A stretch of DNA of 64,000 nt, taken from Eledone cirrhosa (Eukaryota). A program made the translations under genes and the position numbers. Location of the stretch: contig OZ024743.1 in the NCBI GenBank assembly GCA_964016885.1, forward strand, positions 325,004,001-325,068,000, written 5' to 3'. The notes beneath the pieces were generated by a model. That model saw only the letters and a list, made by a program, of their open reading frames with translations. It had not been told where the DNA came from and made no database searches. The stretch's first letter is position 1. Each line of letters starts with the position of its first letter. Positions 6,091 through 56,659 of this stretch are shown here, piece after piece.

Positions 6091-7608
6091 TAGCATAAGT
6101 GAACTGAGAGAAAAACTCTGTATAAGAGGAATTCAGTATAGGGTGCAAGATAGAAAGCTGCATTGGTATGAACATAAAATATAAAACACATATACATATG
6201 GATGTCTGGTTTCAAAATCTCAGGTAGAGTCCACATGGCATCTCTCTACCAAAAGTTAAAGGCACTTGACTCTATTTTAAGATCACACAGACTGTTGGTT
6301 TGGATATGTGAACCATAGTGGTGGGTGAATACATTGATGTACGAAGATTGTGGTCCCTGGTAGACAGGGATGAGGGCACCCACTTAAGACCTTAGAAGAG
6401 ATAATCAGAGATGATCTGAAAGCCTAGAACCTGGACCAAAACCTATCCCTGGAGCGAACACTCTGGAGAGATGCTTTGAAAGAGGCTACCTAAATGTCCA
6501 ATGGTTGTGACAAGTAAAGAAGACTTTAAACCAGACGGCAATGATGATAGTTATACGGACATGTGATGCATATGGAGGATGACCACTGTATACAGAGATG
6601 TAGGGAAATCTCAGTGGATGGGAGCTGTGGAAGAGGTAAACCTAGGAAGACATGGGATGAAATAGTGAAGACCAACCCCAAGAAACTAAACTTCATAACA
6701 GAGATGAGGAAGGACCATGATGTCTAGTGACATTTGGTACTTGAGAAGACTCGACTATAAAAACAAGATGACTCCCTTCCCTCCTTTAGCATCTAACCCC
6801 TTCTTCATGTGACATGACCTGTCCTGGCTCATTTATACTCCCTCCTCCATATCATTGATCTTTAGCTACTACCCTCAACATCATTATACCCACCCACCCT
6901 ATCTTAGAATACTTGCACCCCTTACTCCGTTAAACCCCACCAAATTTATCACAAATGTTTGATTTTTACACATTACTTGGTATTGAATATTAATTTATAA
7001 GTGTTTATATATCAAGAGCAGTACTCCAGCATGGCCTTAGCTGGATGGTTAGAACAGGTAAAAGAGAATATATATATATATGTATGCATTCGTGAGTGAA
7101 TAATAATAATATTAATATTCACTCACAAATGGAGGCACATGGCTTAGTTGTTAGAGCATTAGCTTTGCAATCAAAAGGTTGTGAGTTCAATTCTCACACC
7201 GGGAGATGTGTTGTTTCCTTCAGCAAGGCACTTTATTTCACATTGCTCCAGTTTACTTAGCTGTAGAAATGAGATGGTAGGGACTGGGGTCCCTATCATT
7301 CCACTGCAAAGTGGTCGTGGAGGTGCCATGGCAAAAAAGCACCCAGCACTCACTGTAAATGAGGTTGGTGTTAGGAAGGGCATCCAGCTGTAGAAATCAA
7401 GCCAGAATCAGTTCCCGTCCCACCCTTGCAAGCAGGGAAAAGCTGACATAAAATGATGATGATGATGAATACATTTAGGTATCCGCCATGTTAGAGCAAA
7501 AACAAATTTTGTTTTTGTTTATATATATATATTTTTATTAAAATAACAGATTAAAGTTTAAGCAAAGAATCGCTGCTTTCACCCTTCAGTCTTCAAATTT
7601 ATTATTAT

Positions 7609-39297: not shown

Positions 39298-39608
39298 ATG
39301 TATATATAAATGTACATATTGTATATTTAATAATATACTGTATGTTTATTTAAAAACATTTTGAAGGCCTTTCACTATGAATTTAAGGTAGTGACTATAG
39401 CCACATATCTAGCTTCAGCAAAAACAAAGGGAAATAACCGACAATCGTTTCTCGCTGTTTAGCGGTTATCAAGATTTTTGCTGAAGCTAGGTATGTGACG
39501 ACAGTCACTACCTTAAATTCATAATGAAAGGCCTTCAAAATGTCTTAAAACAAATATACAACACGTACATTCATATATACATCGCTGTTTCAGAGCACCA
39601 ACACAAAT
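39298..39608. mobile_element. Diverged fold-back element related to the 310-bp unit, HHR-like motif in the loop
   Basis: Arms ~39298-39424 and ~39475-39582. Loop rc: TTGATAA c-cgct-aaac-agcg-a GAAA cgattgtcgg TT atttc. Confidence 0.75.
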
Positions 39609-39949
39609 ATATATATATGTGAAGGTGCAGGCTTAGTGGTTAGAGCATTGGGCTTGCAATCAAAAGATTGTGAGTTTGATTCTCGGACCGAGTGATGCAT
39701 TGTGTCCTTGAGCAATACACTTTATTTCATGTCGCTCCAATTTACTTAACTGTAGAAATGAGTGCAATGTCACTGGTGCCAAGGTGTATCAGCCATAGCC
39801 TTTCTCTTGGACATCATTGGTGGCATGGAGAGCAGAGACTGGTATGCATGGGCGACTGTTGGTCTTCCACAAACAACCTTGCCCGGACTTTTGCCTTGGA
39901 GGGGAACTTTCTAGGTGCAAATGCCATGGTCATTCGTGACCGAAGGGGG

Positions 39950-44279: not shown

Positions 44280-44861
44280 ATACGTACATACATATATGTA
44301 TACAGACGCACAGTAGTATGTATATATATACATACATGCACACATATATATATACGTATGGATTCACCGAACATTTATTATAATGCTCGGTGTGTTTGTA
44401 AACAAACATCCCGAATTAAGCCGTACAGTGTCTACCAACCATCGTTGCTCATTTGTTCAACACTGACAAAGGAACGCTGTACTAGTTTCAAGCTTATTAG
44501 CTATTGTCAACAACGTATACCTTCCTGCCAGATGGTTGAACATCTGAAAGTATATACTTTATACTTTCCTTATGCATAAGGAAAGTATATACTTTCAGAC
44601 GTTCAACCATCTGGCAGGAAGGTATATGTTGCTGACGATAGCTAATAAGCTTGAAACTAGTACAGCGTTCCTTTGTCAGTGTTGAACAAATGAGCAACGA
44701 TGGTTGCTAGACACTACGGCTTAATTCGGGATGTTTGTTTACAAACACACCGAGCATTATAATAAATGTTCGGTGAATCCATACGTACATATATATATGT
44801 GTGTATGTATATATATATATACATACTACTGTGCGTCTATATACATATATGTATGTACGTA

Positions 44862-44862
<1 letters not shown>
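44280..44862. mobile_element. Fold-back palindrome (~290-bp arms) with two inverted hammerheads
   Basis: Centre ccttatg|cataagg at 44574/44575; HHRs at 44474-44516 (-) and 44626-44668 (+). Confidence 0.9.
44626..44668 (+). ncRNA. Type I hammerhead ribozyme
   Basis: atgttg CTGACGA t-agct-aata-agct-t GAAA ctag TA cagcgt. Confidence 0.87.
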
Positions 44863-46079
<1,217 letters not shown>

Positions 46080-49000
46080 GTGAATATAGACATAGAATAT
46101 TCGAAAATATTCTGTATGTTTATAATAAACATTTTGAAGACCTAATCGCTATAGAATAGAATACGTCACGTATTACAATTAGATTCTCGATAAAAGCAAG
46201 GGAAGTAATCTACGCGTTTCATTCTTATTAGAAATCTTCAGGACTACATATCCAGTGCTTTTATCGAGAATGACACAGCTAGAGACTTATAGAATACTTA
46301 GCTGTGTACAGGAACTGGTTTGAAAGAGCGGTTGCCGGTCCGGCAGAAATTAGAAATTGGAATAAATGCTCTGAAATAGCGATATATATGTGAATATAGA
46401 CATAGAATATTCGAAAATATTCTGTATGTTTATAATAAACATTTTGAAGACCTAATCGCTATAGAATAGAATACGTCACGTATTACAATTAGATTCTCGA
46501 TAAAAGCAAGGGAAGTAATCTACGCGTTTCATTCTTATTAGAAATCTTCAGGACTACATATCCAGTGCTTTTATCGAGAATGACACAGCTAGAGACTTAT
46601 AGAATACTTAGCTGTGTACAGGAACTGGTTTGAAAGAGCGGTTGCCGGTCCGGCAGAAATTAGAAATTGGAATAAATGCTCTGAAATAGCGATATATATG
46701 TGAATATAGACATAGAATATTCGAAAATATTCTGTATGTTTATAATAAACATTTTGAAGACCTAATCGCTATAGAATAGAATACGTCACGTATTACAATT
46801 AGATTCTCGATAAAAGCAAGGGAAGTAATCTACGCGTTTCATTCTTATTAGAAATCTTCAGGACTACATATCCAGTGCTTTTATCGAGAATGACACAGCT
46901 AGAGACTTATAGAATACTTAGCTGTGTACAGGAACTGGTTTGAAAGAGCGGTTGCCGGTCCGGCAGAAATTAGAAATTGGAATAAATGCTCTGAAATAGC
47001 GATATATATGTGAATATAGACATAGAATATTCGAAAATATTCTGTATGTTTATAATAAACATTTTGAAGACCTAATCGCTATAGAATAGAATACGTCACG
47101 TATTACAATTAGATTCTCGATAAAAGCAAGGGAAGTAATCTACGCGTTTCATTCTTATTAGAAATCTTCAGGACTACATATCCAGTGCTTTTATCGAGAA
47201 TGACACAGCTAGAGACTTATAGAATACTTAGCTGTGTACAGGAACTGGTTTGAAAGAGCGGTTGCCGGTCCGGCAGAAATTAGAAATTGGAATAAATGCT
47301 CTGAAATAGCGATATATATGTGAATATAGACATAGAATATTCGAAAATATTCTGTATGTTTATAATAAACATTTTGAAGACCTAATCGCTATAGAATAGA
47401 ATACGTCACGTATTACAATTAGATTCTCGATAAAAGCAAGGGAAGTAATCTACGCGTTTCATTCTTATTAGAAATCTTCAGGACTACATATCCAGTGCTT
47501 TTATCGAGAATGACACAGCTAGAGACTTATAGAATACTTAGCTGTGTACAGGAACTGGTTTGAAAGAGCGGTTGCCGGTCCGGCAGAAATTAGAAATTGG
47601 AATAAATGCTCTGAAATAGCGATATATATGTGAATATAGACATAGAATATTCGAAAATATTCTGTATGTTTATAATAAACATTTTGAAGACCTAATCGCT
47701 ATAGAATAGAATACGTCACGTATTACAATTAGATTCTCGATAAAAGCAAGGGAAGTAATCTACGCGTTTCATTCTTATTAGAAATCTCCAGGACTACATA
47801 TCCAGTGCTTTTATCGAGAATGACACAGCTAGAGACTTATAGAATACTTAGCTGTGTACAGGAACTGGTTTGAAAGAGCGGTTGCCGGTCCGGCAGAAAT
47901 TAGAAATTGGAATAAATGCTCTGAAATAGCGATATATATGTGAATATAGACATAGAATATTCGAAAATATTCTGTATGTTTATAATAAACATTTTGAAGA
48001 CCTAATCGCTATAGAATAGAATACGTCACGTATTACAATTAGATTCTCGATAAAAGCAAGGGAAGTAATCTACGCGTTTCATTCTTATTAGAAATCTTCA
48101 GGACTACATATCCAGTGCTTTTATCGAGAATGACACAGCTAGAGACTTATAGAATACTTAGCTGTGTACAGGAACTGGTTTGAAAGAGCGGTTGCCGGTC
48201 CGGCAGAAATTAGAAATTGGAATAAATGCTCTGAAATAGCGATATATATGTGAATATAGACATAGAATATTCGAAAATATTCTGTATGTTTATAATAAAC
48301 ATTTTGAAGACCTAATCGCTATAGAATAGAATACGTCACGTATTACAATTAGATTCTCGATAAAAGCAAGGGAAGTAATCTACGCGTTTCATTCTTATTA
48401 GAAATCTTCAGGACTACATATCCAGTGCTTTTATCGAGAATGACACAGCTAGAGACTTATAGAATACTTAGCTGTGTACAGGAACTGGTTTGAAAGAGCG
48501 GTTGCCGGTCCGGCAGAAATTAGAAATTGGAATAAATGCTCTGAAATAGCGATATATATGTGAATATAGACATAGAATATTCGAAAATATTCTGTATGTT
48601 TATAATAAACATTTTGAAGACCTAATCGCTATAGAATAGAATACGTCACGTATTACAATTAGATTCTCGATAAAAGCAAGGGAAGTAATCTACGCGTTTC
48701 ATTCTTATTAGAAATCTTCAGGACTACATATCCAGTGCTTTTATCGAGAATAACACAGCTAGAGACTTATAGAATACTTAGCTGTGTACAGGAACTGGTT
48801 TGAAAGAGCGGTTGCCGGTCCGGCAGAAATTAGAAATTGGAATAAATGCTCTGAAATAGCGATATATATGTGAATATAGACATAGAATATTCGAAAATAT
48901 TCTGTATGTTTATAATAAACATTTTGAAGACCTAATCGCTATAGAATAGAATACGTCACGTATTACAATTAGATTCTCGATAAAAGCAAGGGAAGTAATC

Positions 49001-52000
49001 TACGCGTTTCATTCTTATTAGAAATCTTCAGGACTACATATCCAGTGCTTTTATCGAGAATGACACAGCTAGAGACTTATAGAATACTTAGCTGTGTACA
49101 GGAACTGGTTTGAAAGAGCGGTTGCCGGTCCGGCAGAAATTAGAAATTGGAATAAATGCTCTGAAATAGCGATATATATGTGAATATAGACATAGAATAT
49201 TCGAAAATATTCTGTATGTTTATAATAAACATTTTGAAGACCTAATCGCTATAGAATAGAATACGTCACGTATTACAATTAGATTCTCGATAAAAGCAAG
49301 GGAAGTAATCTACGCGTTTCATTCTTATTAGAAATCTTCAGGACTACATATCCAGTGCTTTTATCGAGAATGACACAGCTAGAGACTTATAGAATACTTA
49401 GCTGTGTACAGGAACTGGTTTGAAAGAGCGGTTGCCGGTCCGGCAGAAATTAGAAATTGGAATAAATGCTCTGAAATAGCGATATATATGTGAATATAGA
49501 CATAGAATATTCGAAAATATTCTGTATGTTTATAATAAACATTTTGAAGACCTAATCGCTATAGAATAGAATACGTCACGTATTACAATTAGATTCTCGA
49601 TAAAAGCAAGGGAAGTAATCTACGCGTTTCATTCTTATTAGAAATTTTCAGGACTACATATCCAGTGCTTTTATCGAGAATGACACAGCTAGAGACTTAT
49701 AGAATACTTAGCTGTGTACAGGAACTGGTTTGAAAGAGCGGTTGCCGGTCCGGCAGAAATTAGAAATTGGAATAAATGCTCTGAAATAGCGATATATATG
49801 TGAATATAGACATAGAATATTCGAAAATATTCTGTATGTTTATAATAAACATTTTGAAGACCTAATCGCTATAGAATAGAATACGTCACGTATTACAATT
49901 AGATTCTCGATAAAAGCAAGGGAAGTAATCTACGCGTTTCATTCTTATTAGAAATCTTCAGGACTACATATCCAGTGCTTTTATCGAGAATGACACAGCT
50001 AGAGACTTATAGAATACTTAGCTGTGTACAGGAACTGGTTTGAAAGAGCGGTTGCCGGTCCGGCAGAAATTAGAAATTGGAATAAATGCTCTGAAATAGC
50101 GATATATATGTGAATATAGACATAGAATATTCGAAAATATTCTGTATGTTTATAATAAACATTTTGAAGACCTAATCGCTATAGAATAGAATACGTCACG
50201 TATTACAATTAGATTCTCGATAAAAGCAAGGGAAGTAATCTACGCGTTTCATTCTTATTAGAAATCTTCAGGACTACATATCCAGTGCTTTTATCGAGAA
50301 TGACACAGCTAGAGACTTATAGAATACTTAGCTGTGTACAGGAACTGGTTTGAAAGAGCAGTTGCCGGTCCGGCAGAAATTAGAAATTGGAATAAATGCT
50401 CTGAAATAGCGATATATATGTGAATATAGACATAGAATATTCGAAAATATTCTGTATGTTTATAATAAACATTTTGAAGACCTAATCGCTATAGAATAGA
50501 ATACGTCACGTATTACAATTAGATTCTCGATAAAAGCAAGGGAAGTAATCTACGCGTTTCATTCTTATTAGAAATCTTCAGGACTACATATCCAGTGCTT
50601 TTATCGAGAATGACACAGCTAGAGACTTATAGAATACTTAGCTGTGTACAGGAACTGGTTTGAAAGAGCGGTTGCCGGTCCGGCAGAAATTAGAAATTGG
50701 AATAAATGCTCTGAAATAGCGATATATATGTGAATATAGACATAGAATATTCGAAAATATTCTGTATGTTTATAATAAACATTTTGAAGACCTAATCGCT
50801 ATAGAATAGAATACGTCACGTATTACAATTAGATTCTCGATAAAAGCAAGGGAAGTAATCTACGCGTTTCATTCTTATTAGAAATCTTCAGGACTACATA
50901 TCCAGTGCTTTTATCGAGAATGACACAGCTAGAGACTTATAGAATACTTAGCTGTGTACAGGAACTGGTTTGAAAGAGCAGTTGCCGGTCCGGCAGAAAT
51001 TAGAAATTGGAATAAATGCTCTGAAATAGCGATATATATGTGAATATAGACATAGAATATTCGAAAATATTCTGTATGTTTATAATAAACATTTTGAAGA
51101 CCTAATCGCTATAGAATAGAATACGTCACGTATTACAATTAGATTCTCGATAAAAGCAAGGGAAGTAATCTACGCGTTTCATTCTTATTAGAAATCTTCA
51201 GGACTACATATCCAGTGCTTTTATCGAGAATGACACAGCTAGAGACTTATAGAATACTTAGCTGTGTACAGGAACTGGTTTGAAAGAGCGGTTGCCGGTC
51301 CGGCAGAAATTAGAAATTGGAATAAATGCTCTGAAATAGCGATATATATGTGAATATAGACATAGAATATTCGAAAATATTCTGTATGTTTATAATAAAC
51401 ATTTTGAAGACCTAATCGCTATAGAATAGAATACGTCACGTATTACAATTAGATTCTCGATAAAAGCAAGGGAAGTAATCTACGCGTTTCATTCTTATTA
51501 GAAATCTTCAGGACTACATATCCAGTGCTTTTATCGAGAATGACACAGCTAGAGACTTATAGAATACTTAGCTGTGTACAGGAACTGGTTTGAAAGAGCG
51601 GTTGCCGGTCCGGCAGAAATTAGAGATTGGAATAAATGCTCTGAAATAGCGATATATATGTGAATATAGACATAGAATATTCGAAAATATTCTGTATGTT
51701 TATAATAAACATTTTGAAGACCTAATCGCTATAGAATAGAATACGTCACGTATTACAATTAGATTCTCGATAAAAGCAAGGGAAGTAATCTACGCGTTTC
51801 ATTCTTATTAGAAATCTTCAGGACTACATATCCAGTGCTTTTATCGAGAATGACACAGCTAGAGACTTATAGAATACTTAGCTGTGTACAGGAACTGGTT
51901 TGAAAGAGCGGTTGCCGGTCCGGCAGAAATTAGAAATTGGAATAAATGCTCTGAAATAGCGATATATATGTGAATATAGACATAGAATATTCGAAAATAT

Positions 52001-52826
52001 TCTGTATGTTTATAATAAACATTTTGAAGACCTAATCGCTATAGAATAGAATACGTCACGTATTACAATTAGATTCTCGATAAAAGCAAGGGAAGTAATC
52101 TACGCGTTTCATTCTTATTAGAAATCTTCAGGACTACATATCCAGTGCTTTTATCGAGAATGACACAGCTAGAGACTTATAGAATACTTAGCTGTGTACA
52201 GGAACTGGTTTGAAAGAGCGGTTGCCGGTCCGGCAGAAATTAGAAATTGGAATAAATGCTTTGAAATAGCGATATATATGTGAATATAGACATAGAATAT
52301 TCGAAAATATTCTGTATGTTTATAATAAACATTTTGAAGACCTAATCGCTATAGAATAGAATACGTCACGTATTAAAATTAGATTCTCGATAAAAGCAAG
52401 GGAAGTAATCTACGCGTTTCATTCTTATTAGAAATCTTCAGGACTACATATCCAGTGCTTTTATCGAGAATGACACAGCTAGAGACTTATAGAATACTTA
52501 GCTGTGTACAGGAACTGGTTTGAAAGAGCGGTTGCCGGTCCGGCAGAAATTAGAAATTGGAATAAATGCTCTGAAATAGCGATATATATGTGAATATAGA
52601 CATAGAATATTCGAAAATATTCTGTATGTTTATAATAAACATTTTGAAGACCTAATCGCTATAGAATAGAATACGTCACGTATTACAATTAGATTCTCGA
52701 TAAAAGCAAGGGAAGTAATCTACGCGTTTCATTCTTATTAGAAATCTTCAGGACTACATATCCAGTGCTTTTATCGAGAATGACACAGCTAGAGACTTAT
52801 AGAATACTTAGCTGTGTACAGGAACT
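46080..52826 (-). repeat. 310-bp tandem array, 21 full units plus a partial unit, one hammerhead per unit (retrozyme-like)
   Basis: Unit start gtgaatatagac recurs at 46080, 46390 ... 52590 (exact period 310). Only about 8 substitutions seen across the array. Confidence 0.97.
46205..46247 (-). ncRNA. Type I hammerhead ribozyme, first of 22 copies spaced 310 bp apart
   Basis: Reverse complement reads gtagtc CTGAAGA t-ttct-aata-agaa-t GAAA cgcg TA gattac: 6-bp stem I, intact core, 4-bp stem II, palindromic stem III, GUA cleavage triplet. Confidence 0.93.
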
Positions 52827-53078
52827 ATAAGTCTCTAGCTGTGTCATTCTCGATAAAAGCACTGGATATGTAGTCCTGAAGATTTCTAATAAGAATGAAA
52901 CGCGTAGATTACTTCCCTTGCTTTTATCGAGAATCTAATTGTAATACGTGACGTATTCTATTCTACAGCGATTAGGTCTTCAAAATGTTTATTATAAACA
53001 TACAGAATATTTTCGAATATTCTATGTCTATATTCACATATATATCGCTATTTCAGAGCATTTATTCCAATTTCTAAT
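52825..53078 (+). repeat. Inverted terminal partial copy (254 bp) of the 310-bp unit
   Basis: Reverse complement of the array sequence with one substitution; 2-nt (ct) overlap at the junction; runs into the (TA)n tract. Confidence 0.95.
52870..52912 (+). ncRNA. Type I hammerhead ribozyme in the inverted terminal copy
   Basis: Read directly on +: gtagtc CTGAAGA tttctaataagaat GAAA cgcg TA gattac. Confidence 0.92.
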
Positions 53079-53989: not shown

Positions 53990-54809
53990 AAAGGCAGGTT
54001 GTACGATGCCTGCATACGAACAGCAATGTTGCATGGCAGTGAGACCTGGGCATTGTGTGCAGAGGATATACGCAGACTAGAGAGAAACGAAGCTTGCATG
54101 CTCCGCTGGATGTGTAATAGTAATATACGTGAACGACAAAGCATAAACGAACTAAGGAAAAAATTAGAAATAAGAGGGATCAGATGTTGTTTACTCGAGA
54201 GAAGGCTACGTTGGTATGGTCACGTGATGCGCATGAAGGACGATAGCTGTATAACAAACTGCAGGGCAATAAAGATAGACGGTAGCCACGGAATAGGCAG
54301 ACCCAGAAAAACCTGAGACGAGCTGATAAACTCCGACCTCACACACTTACACCTTACCAAGACAATGTCACTGGACCGAGACCTTTGGCGGTACTCAGTA
54401 ATAGAGAAGACCCGCCTTACCTAAATACAAAGTAAAACCATACAGTCAGTAGGCATCTCTAACAAAATACACCCCCGACCCACCACCCCCACCCCATCCA
54501 CACCGCCCCCCTCCTATGTAAAGTTATGTTGGTGCCACACCATCCAGGCCGAAACAAATGAGATCGTGTAGGTGTCACGACAAAAAAACACACAGTCCAC
54601 GCTGTAATGTGGCTGTGTAGGCAACACGGTAAAAACCTCCCAGACCCACACTGTAAATGTGGTTGGTGTTAGGAAGGGCATCCAACTGTAGAAAACCTGC
54701 CAGACAGTCCTATGCGAGCAAGACAATCACTCTTGCCTCAAGTGGGACTACCCCCGTCCAAACCCATGCAAGCGTGGAACACGGACGTTAAACGATGATG
54801 ATGATGATG

Positions 54810-54876: not shown

Positions 54877-56659
54877 GATATAGAGGCATTAAATTAATTG
54901 ACCAGGTCATGAAGGTCACGGAAAAAGTAATAGCGCAACTAATCAGAGAGAGAATTGATCTAGATGAAATGCAGTTCGGGTTTGTGTCAGGCAAAAGCAC
55001 CACAGACGCTCTTTTCATAGTACGACAACTACAGGAGAAGTACCTAGCTAAAGGTAAACCCCTCTACTTAGCTTTTGTCGACCTGGAGAAAGCCTTCGAC
55101 AGAGTCCCCCGCTCCATTATCTGGTGGGCTCTTAGAAAACTAGGCGTTGACGAATGGCTTGTGAGGGCTATACAAGCCATGTATAAAGAAACAGTCAGCA
55201 AGGTTAGAATTAACAACGAATATAGTGAAGAGTTTAGCGTAAAAGTTGGCGTCCATCAGGGCTCTGTTCTCAGCCCCCTACTATTTATTATTGCCCTTCA
55301 GGCTATAACAGAGGAGTTCAAGACAGGCTGCCCATGGGAACTCCTATACGCAGACGACCTGACACTCATAGCGGAATCAATGGCCGAGCTAGAGAAGAAA
55401 TTCCAAACATGGAAGCACGGCCTAGAGTCAAAAGGACTTAAAATTAACCTGGCTAAGACCAAAGTTCTAGTTTGTAGGAAAGAAAACAAGGCGGCGGTCC
55501 CTTCTGGGAAATGGTCGTGCTCGGTATGTAGGAAAGGCGTAGGTAGAAACTCCATCTTATGTCCTAAATGCAAAGTATGGGTGCATAAAAGATGTAGTGG
55601 GATCACAGGTAAGCTAACTAAGAACATAGACTTTACATGTGGCCGGTGTTCTGGTGCAATAAGTAGCAGCAAGTGCCCACAAAATACTAGCTCTTTCAAT
55701 TGCGCAGAGGGTTCTATAGAAATAGTGGACAGCTTCCGTTACCTGGGCGATAAAATCAGCAGTGGGGGAGGGTGCTCTGAAAGTACTGTAGCTAGAGTCA
55801 GAACTGGTTGGAAAAAGTTCAGAGAGCTTATACCACTATTAGCTGCTAAAGGGTTCTCCCTAAAAATGAAAGGCAGGTTGTACGATGCCTGCATACGAAC
55901 AGCAATGTTGCATGGTAGTGAGACCTGGGCATTGTGTGCAGAGGATATACGCAGACTAGAGAGGAACGAAGCTTGCATGCTCCGCTGGATGTGTAACAGT
56001 AATATACGTGAACGGCAAAGCATAAACGAACTAAGGAAAAAATTAGAGATAAGAGGGATCAGATGTTGTTTACTCGAGAGAAGGCTGCGTTGGTATGGAC
56101 ACGTGATGCGCATGAAAGTCGATAGCTGTATTACAAAGTGCAGGGCAATAAAGATAGACGGTAGCCACGGAATAGGCAGACCTAGAAAAACATGGGATGA
56201 GCTGATAAACTCCGACCTCACACACTTACACCTCTCCAAGACAATGTCACTGGACCGTGACCTTTGGCGGTACTCAGTAACAGAGAAGACCCGCCTTGCC
56301 AGTAGGCATCTCTAACAAAATACACCCCGTCCCGCCACCACCCCCACCCCATCCACACCACCCCGTTCTATGTAAAGTTATGTTGGTGCCGCGCCATCCA
56401 GGCCGAAACAAATGAGATCGTGTAGGTGTCACGACAAAAAAACACACAGTCCACGCTGTAATGTGGCCGTGTAGGCAACACGGTAAAAACCTCCCAGACC
56501 CACACTGTAAATGTGGTTGGTGTTAGGAAGGGCATCCAACTGTAGAAAACCTGCCAGACAGTCCTATGCGAGCAAGACAATCACTCTTGCCTCAAGTGGG
56601 ACTACCCCCGTCCAAACCCATGCAAGCGTGGAACACGGACGTTAAACGTTGATGATGAT
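54877..56659 (+). mobile_element. RTE-clade LINE, 5'-truncated, uninterrupted RT ORF (54909-56315) and (GAT)n tail
   Basis: YRGIKLIDQVMK, QFGF, FVDLEKAFDRVP, GVHQGSVLSPLLF, YADDL, RRLRWYGHV, GRPRKTW; ends in gatgatgat. Confidence 0.96.

What the first reader, a model, noticed from the sequence alone, without database searches (positions are those of the whole stretch)
46080..53078. Retrozyme-like array: 22 tandem 310-bp units, each encoding a complete hammerhead ribozyme
Seen: the apparent satellite has, on the - strand of every unit, gtagtc CTGAAGA tttctaataagaat GAAA cgcg TA|gattac, with all core nucleotides and three stems. Stem I continues past an internal loop (ctggatat / ttccct) into a perfect 16-bp helix (attctcgataaaagca / tgcttttatcgagaat). 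The unit has no ORF. Established: tandem 150-400-nt repeats with type I HHRs (newt satellite 2, schistosome Sm-alpha, cricket pDo500, metazoan non-LTR retrozymes) self-cleave to monomers, and retrozyme monomers circularise. HHRs with a short palindromic stem III (here CGCG) cleave as dimers, which a tandem array supplies in cis. Inference: this array would yield a 310-nt linear or circular RNA and was probably written into the genome by rolling-circle reverse transcription. I do not recognise this family as described; novelty needs a database search.
Basis: partly seen in the sequence, partly recalled or inferred. Interest (0 to 1): 0.95.

Follow-up and report, generated by a model that had tools for sequence, protein, structure and literature searches.

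The report
Ribozyme repeat inserted as two-armed arrays
This repeat is one of over a thousand recent insertions of a small self-cutting RNA parasite, probably copied from an RNA circle by a jumping-gene enzyme working from both cut DNA ends at once.

Summary
The array is real: 21.8 copies of a 310-bp unit carrying a type I hammerhead on the - strand. Two of the 22 cores are mutated.

The genome holds at least 14,375 units in an estimated 1,300-1,600 dispersed insertions. Of 52 sampled, 43 are two-armed and head to head. All 42 seen in full have one arm ending at unit position 130-139 and the other at 165-172. That offset matches the Penelope-like element (PLE) 'tail'. An intact 900-aa PLE in this genome shows the same anatomy.

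Arm lengths are independent, inner ends are random, and both arms share a haplotype in 32 of 34 insertions. Substitutions fixed across whole arrays keep the ribozyme's pairing (7 of 7); single-unit changes in core or stems do not (0 of 14).

Best reading: a young non-LTR retrozyme, inserted by twin-primed PLE reverse transcription, probably of a 310-nt circle. The class and its PLE link are in print; I did not find this anatomy described for retrozymes. Cleavage, expression and the partner PLE are not shown.

The parts
44789..46076 (.). Left (TA)n-type microsatellite, the insertion target
   Evidence: TRF period 2; sequence
46071..52826 (-). Long arm, 21.8 x 310-bp units. Its outer end lies in the unit's own ATATATAT motif (unit position about 134-139, counted from the ribozyme cut): the 'short' start site
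46183..46271 (-). First hammerhead domain (16-bp outer helix, stem I, CUGAAGA core, weak stem II, GAAA, palindromic stem III). Predicted cut 46211|46210; repeats every 310 bp
47788..47788 (-). Single-unit change of core A6 (unit 6), predicted inactive
49646..49646 (-). Single-unit change of core G8 (unit 12), predicted inactive
52825..52826 (.). Head-to-head junction of the two arms, 2-bp microhomology (unit positions 205 and 229)
52825..53078 (+). Inverted second arm, 0.82 unit, with one intact hammerhead (cut 52906|52907), ending at unit position 172: the 'long' start site
53046..53078 (+). PLE-type tail: unit positions 140-172, present at the outer end of this arm only
   Evidence: tail definition in PMC8557442 and PMC11167929
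53079..53990 (.). Right (TA)n-type microsatellite

Best explanation
A young, non-coding, non-autonomous retroelement of the metazoan non-LTR retrozyme kind, mobilised by the reverse transcriptase (RT) and GIY-YIG endonuclease of a Penelope-like element. Steps: (1) Arrays are transcribed; neighbouring hammerheads pair their palindromic stem III, cut out 310-nt monomers, and these are ligated to circles (inferred from known retrozymes, not shown here). (2) A PLE protein cuts both strands of a (TA)n tract (target shown, enzyme inferred). (3) Each free 3' end primes cDNA inside the unit, one at position 130-139 and one at 165-172 (ends shown). (4) Each RT runs round the template about five times on average and stops at random (lengths shown, circle inferred). 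(5) The two cDNAs are joined head to head by 1-5 nt of microhomology (shown). Long arms can then expand or mix at the DNA level (signs shown).
For: Anatomy: 43 of 52 loci are two-armed, and 42 of 42 complete ones have one end of each type. In 28 of 28 loci the second end was not fixed by how the locus was picked. 95 of 95 outer ends join TA runs. PLE link: an intact 900-aa RT plus GIY-YIG element here has the same two end types 40 nt apart in 8 of 9 loci with both ends seen, and tandem 3,127-bp units. A purified PLE protein cuts and extends both strands and starts at two internal sites that define the tail (PMC11167929). Twin priming rather than fold-back: the 139-arm is the longer in 20 of 42, arm lengths are uncorrelated (rho 0.15), and junction offsets are uniform (8 of 42 within 30 nt, 8.3 expected). 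Endless template: 84 inner ends are spread evenly over the unit (p = 0.29), none lies at the ribozyme cut, no single-unit change falls within 3 nt of the cut in about 515 crossings, and no long third arm is seen. One-unit bottleneck: 22 haplotypes in 43 loci, both arms alike in 32 of 34; a 308-bp variant lies in 9 loci on 5 contigs, always at 308-bp spacing (77 matches). Selection: 7 of 7 array-wide substitutions at paired sites keep the pair and none hits the core, against 0 of 14 harmless single-unit changes (Fisher p = 5e-5). Sister families keep the outer helix and stem I through compensatory changes (20 of 30 pairs) and use a U3-A8 core.
Against: No RNA data and no cleavage assay. No autonomous PLE sharing sequence with the unit was found among 4 PLE families compared. 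In L040 and L171 both arms carry non-fixed variants in register from the outer ends, which fits a linear multimer better than a one-unit circle; L159 and L161 are partly mixed. The variants I first took for locus-private are shared sub-lineages. A helix-breaking variant is fixed in one 6-unit two-armed insertion. A 163-bp sister derivative with no ribozyme forms a 4-copy tandem (L153). In vitro, ribozyme mutants of the anole PLE still insert, and uncut RNA is the main template (PMC11167929). Three of the seven pair-keeping variants come from one locus (L090), and the reference haplotype is a minority one.
Confidence: 0.65

Rival explanations
1. Same PLE twin priming, but the template is a long, uncut read-through transcript of an existing array. 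The hammerhead is a passenger or acts only occasionally.
For: In-register variants in both arms of L040 and L171. A ribozyme-free 4-copy derivative. The helix-breaking variant sits in runs of up to 4 units in one mixed array and is fixed in a 3+3 insertion elsewhere. PLE data in vitro (PMC11167929).
Against: It does not explain how new variants, including a 2-bp deletion, come to fill every unit of many arrays, nor the filter on ribozyme pairing. No copied source junctions or clustered 5' ends were seen.
Confidence: 0.22
2. Short PLE-type insertions (a monomer or dimer per arm) later grew into arrays in place by unequal exchange or slippage, as an ordinary minisatellite. This is the local amplification model of preprint 10.64898/2026.07.22.740005.
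For: Repeated single-base variants recur within long arms (window 191C>T twice, L088, L089, L175). One array of more than 30 units shows higher-order mixing (L218).
Against: Most young insertions have both arms multimeric and nearly invariant, with lengths compatible with an exponential (KS p = 0.28). Older sister-family copies in the 30 loci viewed are short (output partly cut). Autonomous PLE copies show the same tandem pattern at 3.1 kb.
Confidence: 0.1
3. The arrays or inversions are assembly or library artefacts (collapsed repeats, fold-back chimeras).
For: The flanks are long TA tracts, and no reads spanning this locus were examined.
Against: Two fixed end positions, locus-specific haplotypes in both arms and sub-lineages across contigs cannot come from chimeras. 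Contigs of run X1 show the 310-base return joint and TA loose ends at both end positions (X1 may be the assembly's own sample).
Confidence: 0.03

Closest known systems
Metazoan non-LTR retrozymes (coral, mussel, axolotl; PMC7229834, passages seen)
   Same: Tandem 150-450-bp low-GC non-coding units with a type I hammerhead. The U-U at the base of stem II and the short stem III resemble axolotl HHR_Amex2, which works best as a dimer. That paper already proposes circles copied to tandem cDNA, with PLEs as candidate mobilisers.
   Different: No sequence match was tested against those families. In the main text 'inverted' and 'microsatellite' occur 0 times. The two-armed, tailed, (TA)n-targeted insertions seen here are not described there. 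RNA and cleavage were shown there, not here.
[quoted passage not shown]
   Same: Concludes that retrozymes are non-autonomous PLE derivatives.
   Different: Rests on co-occurrence and pLTR homology, mainly in vertebrates; 'tail', 'priming' and 'target site' occur 0 times. It leans to local amplification. Here the evidence is insertion footprints, and no pLTR homologue was found.
EN+ Penelope-like elements (PMC8557442 passages; PMC11167929 parts 1-2 of 4; PMC4209133 passages)
   Same: Inverted 5'-truncated arm, 30-40-bp tail at one end, microsatellite targeting, hammerhead upstream of the RT start sites. PMC4209133 proposed circles as templates for more-than-unit copies.
   Different: No ORF. 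Arms of up to 27 full units, not partial tandems. A fuller hammerhead with an extended helix.
MRC1 and other non-autonomous Chlamys PLEs (PMC8557442 passage)
   Same: [quoted passage not shown]
   Different: Most Chlamys lack hammerheads, and these elements share 3' sequence with their autonomous partners; no such partner was found here.

Membership tests
Non-LTR retrozyme | Type I hammerhead in each tandem unit | tested here: met
   20 of 22 - strand cores intact, plus one on the + strand
Non-LTR retrozyme | Unit of 150-450 bp, low GC, no ORF | tested here: met
   310 bp, GC about 0.33-0.34, longest ATG ORF 30 aa
Non-LTR retrozyme | Many dispersed genomic copies, from monomers to multimers | tested here: met
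   14,375 exact 60-base matches; arms of 0.2-27 units
Non-LTR retrozyme | Self-cleavage of the transcript | not testable with these tools
   Indirect only: pairing kept in propagated variants
Non-LTR retrozyme | Expression as linear and circular monomer RNA | not testable with these tools
   No RNA reads were available to lay
Non-LTR retrozyme | Target-site duplication longer than 4 bp when present | tested here: inconclusive
   All 95 outer ends lie in TA runs, where a duplication cannot be read
Type I hammerhead ribozyme | Core C3-U4-G5-A6-N7-G8-A9, G12-A13-A14, A15.1-U16.1, NUH site, three stems | tested here: met
   stem II weak with U-U at its base, stem III 2 bp and palindromic
Type I hammerhead ribozyme | Reaches the gathering score of an Rfam hammerhead model | tested here: not met
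   No hit at gathering; HH9 17 bits against 52
Type I hammerhead ribozyme | Loop 1 - loop 2 tertiary contact | not tested
   -
Insertion made by an EN+ Penelope-like element | 30-40-bp tail at one end | tested here: met
   Ends at 130-139 and 165-172, 26-42 nt apart, in 42 of 42 complete two-armed loci
Insertion made by an EN+ Penelope-like element | Inverted 5'-truncated arm | tested here: met
   43 of 52 loci; 10 of 12 in the subset picked without regard to ends
Insertion made by an EN+ Penelope-like element | Microsatellite target | tested here: met
   95 of 95 outer ends; one or both ends were selected for this in 40 of the 52 loci
Autonomous Penelope-like element | ORF with RT and GIY-YIG | tested here: not met
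   No ORF in the unit; none inside any of the 52 insertions, though L082 abuts a PLE across an N gap
Non-autonomous PLE derivative | Sequence shared with the pLTR of an autonomous PLE | tested here: inconclusive
   None found against 4 PLE families; other families were not surveyed

The most novel reading that the evidence does not exclude
The 310-nt circle is a viroid-like replicon selected as RNA, written into chromosomes by two-way rolling-circle priming of a PLE enzyme, and not confined to this host. Runs under 18 coded organism labels hold two thirds or more of its sampled words. Two that were laid contain it as a single contig (one closing on itself at 310 bases) of a haplotype that is a minority in the host run. 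Trace carry-over of a very high-copy repeat is the likelier cause and was not excluded.
Probability: 0.07. Interest if true: 0.9.

Novelty: new variant of a known kind. Interest (0 to 1): 0.62.

Why it matters
How animal retrozymes get into new chromosomal sites, and why PLE insertions carry inverted arms and a one-sided tail, are both open questions in the papers read. This family offers more than a thousand near-identical, recent insertions, each marked by haplotype. They can test circle against linear template, twin priming against fold-back, and whether the ribozyme is needed. An intact young PLE with the same anatomy is on hand as a candidate enzyme. The family has also added about 4.5 Mb (0.15% of the assembly) of large inverted repeats.

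Tried and rejected
A DNA search of the own genome with the unit returned nothing; the tool skips very common words, and pattern searches then found thousands of copies. Rfam at gathering score finds no hammerhead.

The idea that array-wide variants are private to one locus was rejected for both variants tested: one lies in 9 loci, the other has 324 matches in many loci.

A fold-back (snap-back) origin of the second arm was rejected as the rule: neither arm is consistently longer and junction offsets are uniform. Template jumping between cut linear monomers is disfavoured because the cut site is seamless and no inner end lies there. The lack of inner ends at 296-12 (p about 5e-4) is a post hoc observation.

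The partner hunt failed. The 272 bases captured at the L089 junction come from a different LINE-like element. A PLE family with a similar stem II (5,924 pattern matches, which span several sub-types) and three other PLE families share no sequence with the start-site region. A 71% match over 80 bases to L120 is mostly the ribozyme core and was set aside.

No RNA holder was listed. Raw reads of run X23 gave 0 laid reads, which the tool marks as no test. Three look-ups of earlier scan findings returned nothing.

Repbase and Dfam could not be searched.
Full report
OBSERVATION. The window holds 21.8 copies of a 310-bp unit at 46071-52826 with 99% matches; units 2-21 differ from their majority sequence at 8 positions in all. 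The domain folds far better than shuffles (z = -6.2). In the circular monomer the outer helix and stem I are near certain and stem II is weak. Rfam gives only a sub-threshold HH9 match. Two units have a core change, A6 at 47788 and G8 at 49646. Unit positions below are counted from the first base after the cut.

THE FAMILY. An exact 60-base stretch occurs 14,375 times in the 3.0-Gb assembly, about 4.5 Mb. The window's own ribozyme haplotype accounts for 1,361 matches. Junction patterns gave 806 and 572 forward-strand hits; reverse hits are listed several times per place, so I doubled the forward counts. With a mean of about 10.8 units per two-armed insertion, this gives roughly 1,300-1,600 insertions, an estimate.

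SAMPLE AND ITS BIAS. I examined 52 loci: the window, 11 picked by the ribozyme pattern, 20 picked by end patterns, 14 of them with both ends known beforehand, and 20 picked by one end only. All but the window are on contig C1. 43 are two-armed and head to head, 8 are single-armed, and one (L082) runs into an N gap. One two-armed locus (L175) was cut off by the fetch and dropped from the end and length counts. A duplicated copy within L037 and an older sister copy within L077 were left out.

ANATOMY. All 42 complete two-armed loci have one outer end at 130-139, in or beside the unit's own ATATATAT, and one at 165-172 (30 of them at 165). In 28 of them the second end was free of selection (10 picked by the ribozyme, 18 by one end), and all 28 obey the rule. 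All 95 readable outer ends join TA runs. Junctions show 1-5 nt of overlap in 28 of 42, none in 4, one 16-nt overlap, and inserted bases in 9.

WHY A PLE. An inverted 5'-truncated copy, a 30-40-bp tail at one end and a bias for microsatellites are the marks of EN+ Penelope-like elements (PMC8557442, passages). A purified anole PLE protein cuts and extends both DNA strands and starts at two internal RNA sites whose spacing is the tail (PMC11167929, parts 1-2 of 4). This genome has a young PLE family with an intact 900-aa RT plus GIY-YIG frame. Of 11 loci fetched, picked mostly as inverted pairs, 9 showed both ends: 8 had one short end about 127 nt past the ribozyme and one long end 40 nt further, in (TA)n; one had two long ends. 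One locus has seamless 3,127-bp tandem units. Two of 30 sister-family loci join a retrozyme arm head to head with a truncated PLE arm (L127, L131/L153); a later deletion could also make such joins. No PLE sharing sequence with the unit was found among 4 families, so the partner is unnamed.

TWIN PRIMING. If the second arm were a fold-back copy of the first, one end type should mark the longer arm. The 139-arm is longer in 20 of 42, lengths are uncorrelated (rho 0.15, p = 0.35), and junction offsets are uniform. Arm lengths (medians 3.4 and 5.1 units, maximum 27) are compatible with an exponential (p = 0.28), as expected from random stopping. Two independent priming events, one per cut strand, explain this (inference).

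CIRCLE OR LINEAR TEMPLATE, IN FAVOUR OF A CIRCLE. The 84 inner ends are evenly spread (p = 0.29) and none lies at the cut site. About 515 crossings of the cut site show no single-unit change within 3 nt. No long third arm from a copied source junction appears. There are 22 haplotypes among 43 loci, with both arms alike in 32 of 34. A 2-bp deletion variant forms pure 308-bp arrays at 9 loci on 5 contigs. Of changes at core or paired sites, those filling a whole array keep the pair in 7 of 7 substitutions (plus one insertion in stem I) and never hit the core; the 14 single-unit changes there all break something (p = 5e-5; three of the seven are from one locus). Older sister families of about 320 bp (638 pattern matches) share the start-site region and both end positions. 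They keep the outer helix and stem I with different sequence (20 of 30 pairs with two-sided change among 9 related sequences; no tree control) and mostly use a U3-A8 core pair.

CIRCLE OR LINEAR TEMPLATE, AGAINST. L040 and L171 carry non-fixed variants in register from both outer ends, and L159 and L161 are partly mixed. A helix-breaking variant has 31 matches: 24 in one mixed array, 6 filling a separate two-armed insertion, 1 alone. A ribozyme-free 163-bp derivative forms 4 tandem copies. Long arms, the window's included, repeat single-base variants, a sign of DNA-level turnover after insertion. I put the circle model at 0.65, linear multimers at 0.22 and local expansion at 0.10; mixtures are likely.

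OTHER RUNS. 20 rows from 17 studies hold half or more of the sampled words. X1 holds the unit at very high depth, with the 310-base return joint and TA loose ends at both end positions; it may be the assembly's own sample. X10 and X17 each hold one low-depth contig of a haplotype that is a minority in X1. Carry-over of a very abundant repeat is the simple reading. Spread between hosts is not shown.

WHAT IS KNOWN. Tandem type I hammerhead repeats expressed as circles, dimer-dependent cleavage, a U-U stem II base and PLEs as candidate mobilisers are in PMC7229834 (passages) and PMC7761336 (passages). Circles as templates for more-than-unit PLE copies were proposed in PMC4209133 (passages). A 2026 preprint argues that retrozymes derive from PLEs (10.64898/2026.07.22.740005, parts 1-3 of 5; its supplements were not seen and may list related families). 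PMC8969392 and PMC13282606 (passages) add nothing specific. Eight searches showed no paper describing this family or two-armed, tailed, microsatellite-targeted retrozyme arrays; most hits were seen as listings only, the library lacks most subscription papers, and repeat databases were not searchable.

VERDICT. A real and very young retrozyme family. The class is known; the insertion anatomy ties it to PLE twin priming and makes the circle question testable. New variant of a known kind, interest 0.62.

Noticed in passing
window 39298-39597: An older sister-family copy with the same two-armed, two-end anatomy in TA runs, about 78% like the unit's start-site region, with a decayed ribozyme region.
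   Followed up: partly
L153 (G000:C1:56072000-56079500) and L127: Head-to-head joins of a sister retrozyme arm with a 5'-truncated PLE arm inside (TA)n, from two different PLE families. In L153 the retrozyme arm is 4 copies of a 163-bp unit lacking the ribozyme, and both arms end at their 'long' sites.
   Followed up: partly
L194-L195 (G000:C2:200825500-200840500): A young autonomous PLE as an inverted arm plus several near-identical 3,127-bp tandem units with a 900-aa open frame; its hammerhead-like core begins CC where CU is usual.
   Followed up: partly
L093-L122 (pattern,924 matches): PLE termini with a compact hammerhead whose stem II also opens with U-U. Many are tiny head-to-head insertions in (TA)n with two end sites roughly 75 nt apart; L096 has a broken GIY-YIG frame upstream.
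   Followed up: partly
L089:3599-3870: 272 bases of another LINE-like element captured exactly at the inversion junction. All 39 other scored matches (96-98%) lie in a 5-Mb part of contig C25.
   Followed up: partly
L218 (G000:C1:217796000-217805900): An array of more than 30 units mixing two variants in a semi-periodic order, a possible step from insertion to satellite.
   Followed up: partly
L040: Both arms switch haplotype after the second unit counted from their outer ends.
   Followed up: partly
runs X10, X17 and the list: The near-identical unit appears in runs under 18 coded organism labels; X10 holds it as one contig closing on itself at 310 bases. Unexplained; carry-over is likely.
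   Followed up: partly
window 53991-54436 and 54879-56315: Two copies of a LINE-type reverse transcriptase 3' region, one with a 478-aa open stretch, directly right of the TA tract.
   Followed up: no
window 7140-7197: A partial tRNA match (36.5 bits). A similar-looking stretch near 39630 was seen by eye only; a tRNA-derived SINE is likely.
   Followed up: no
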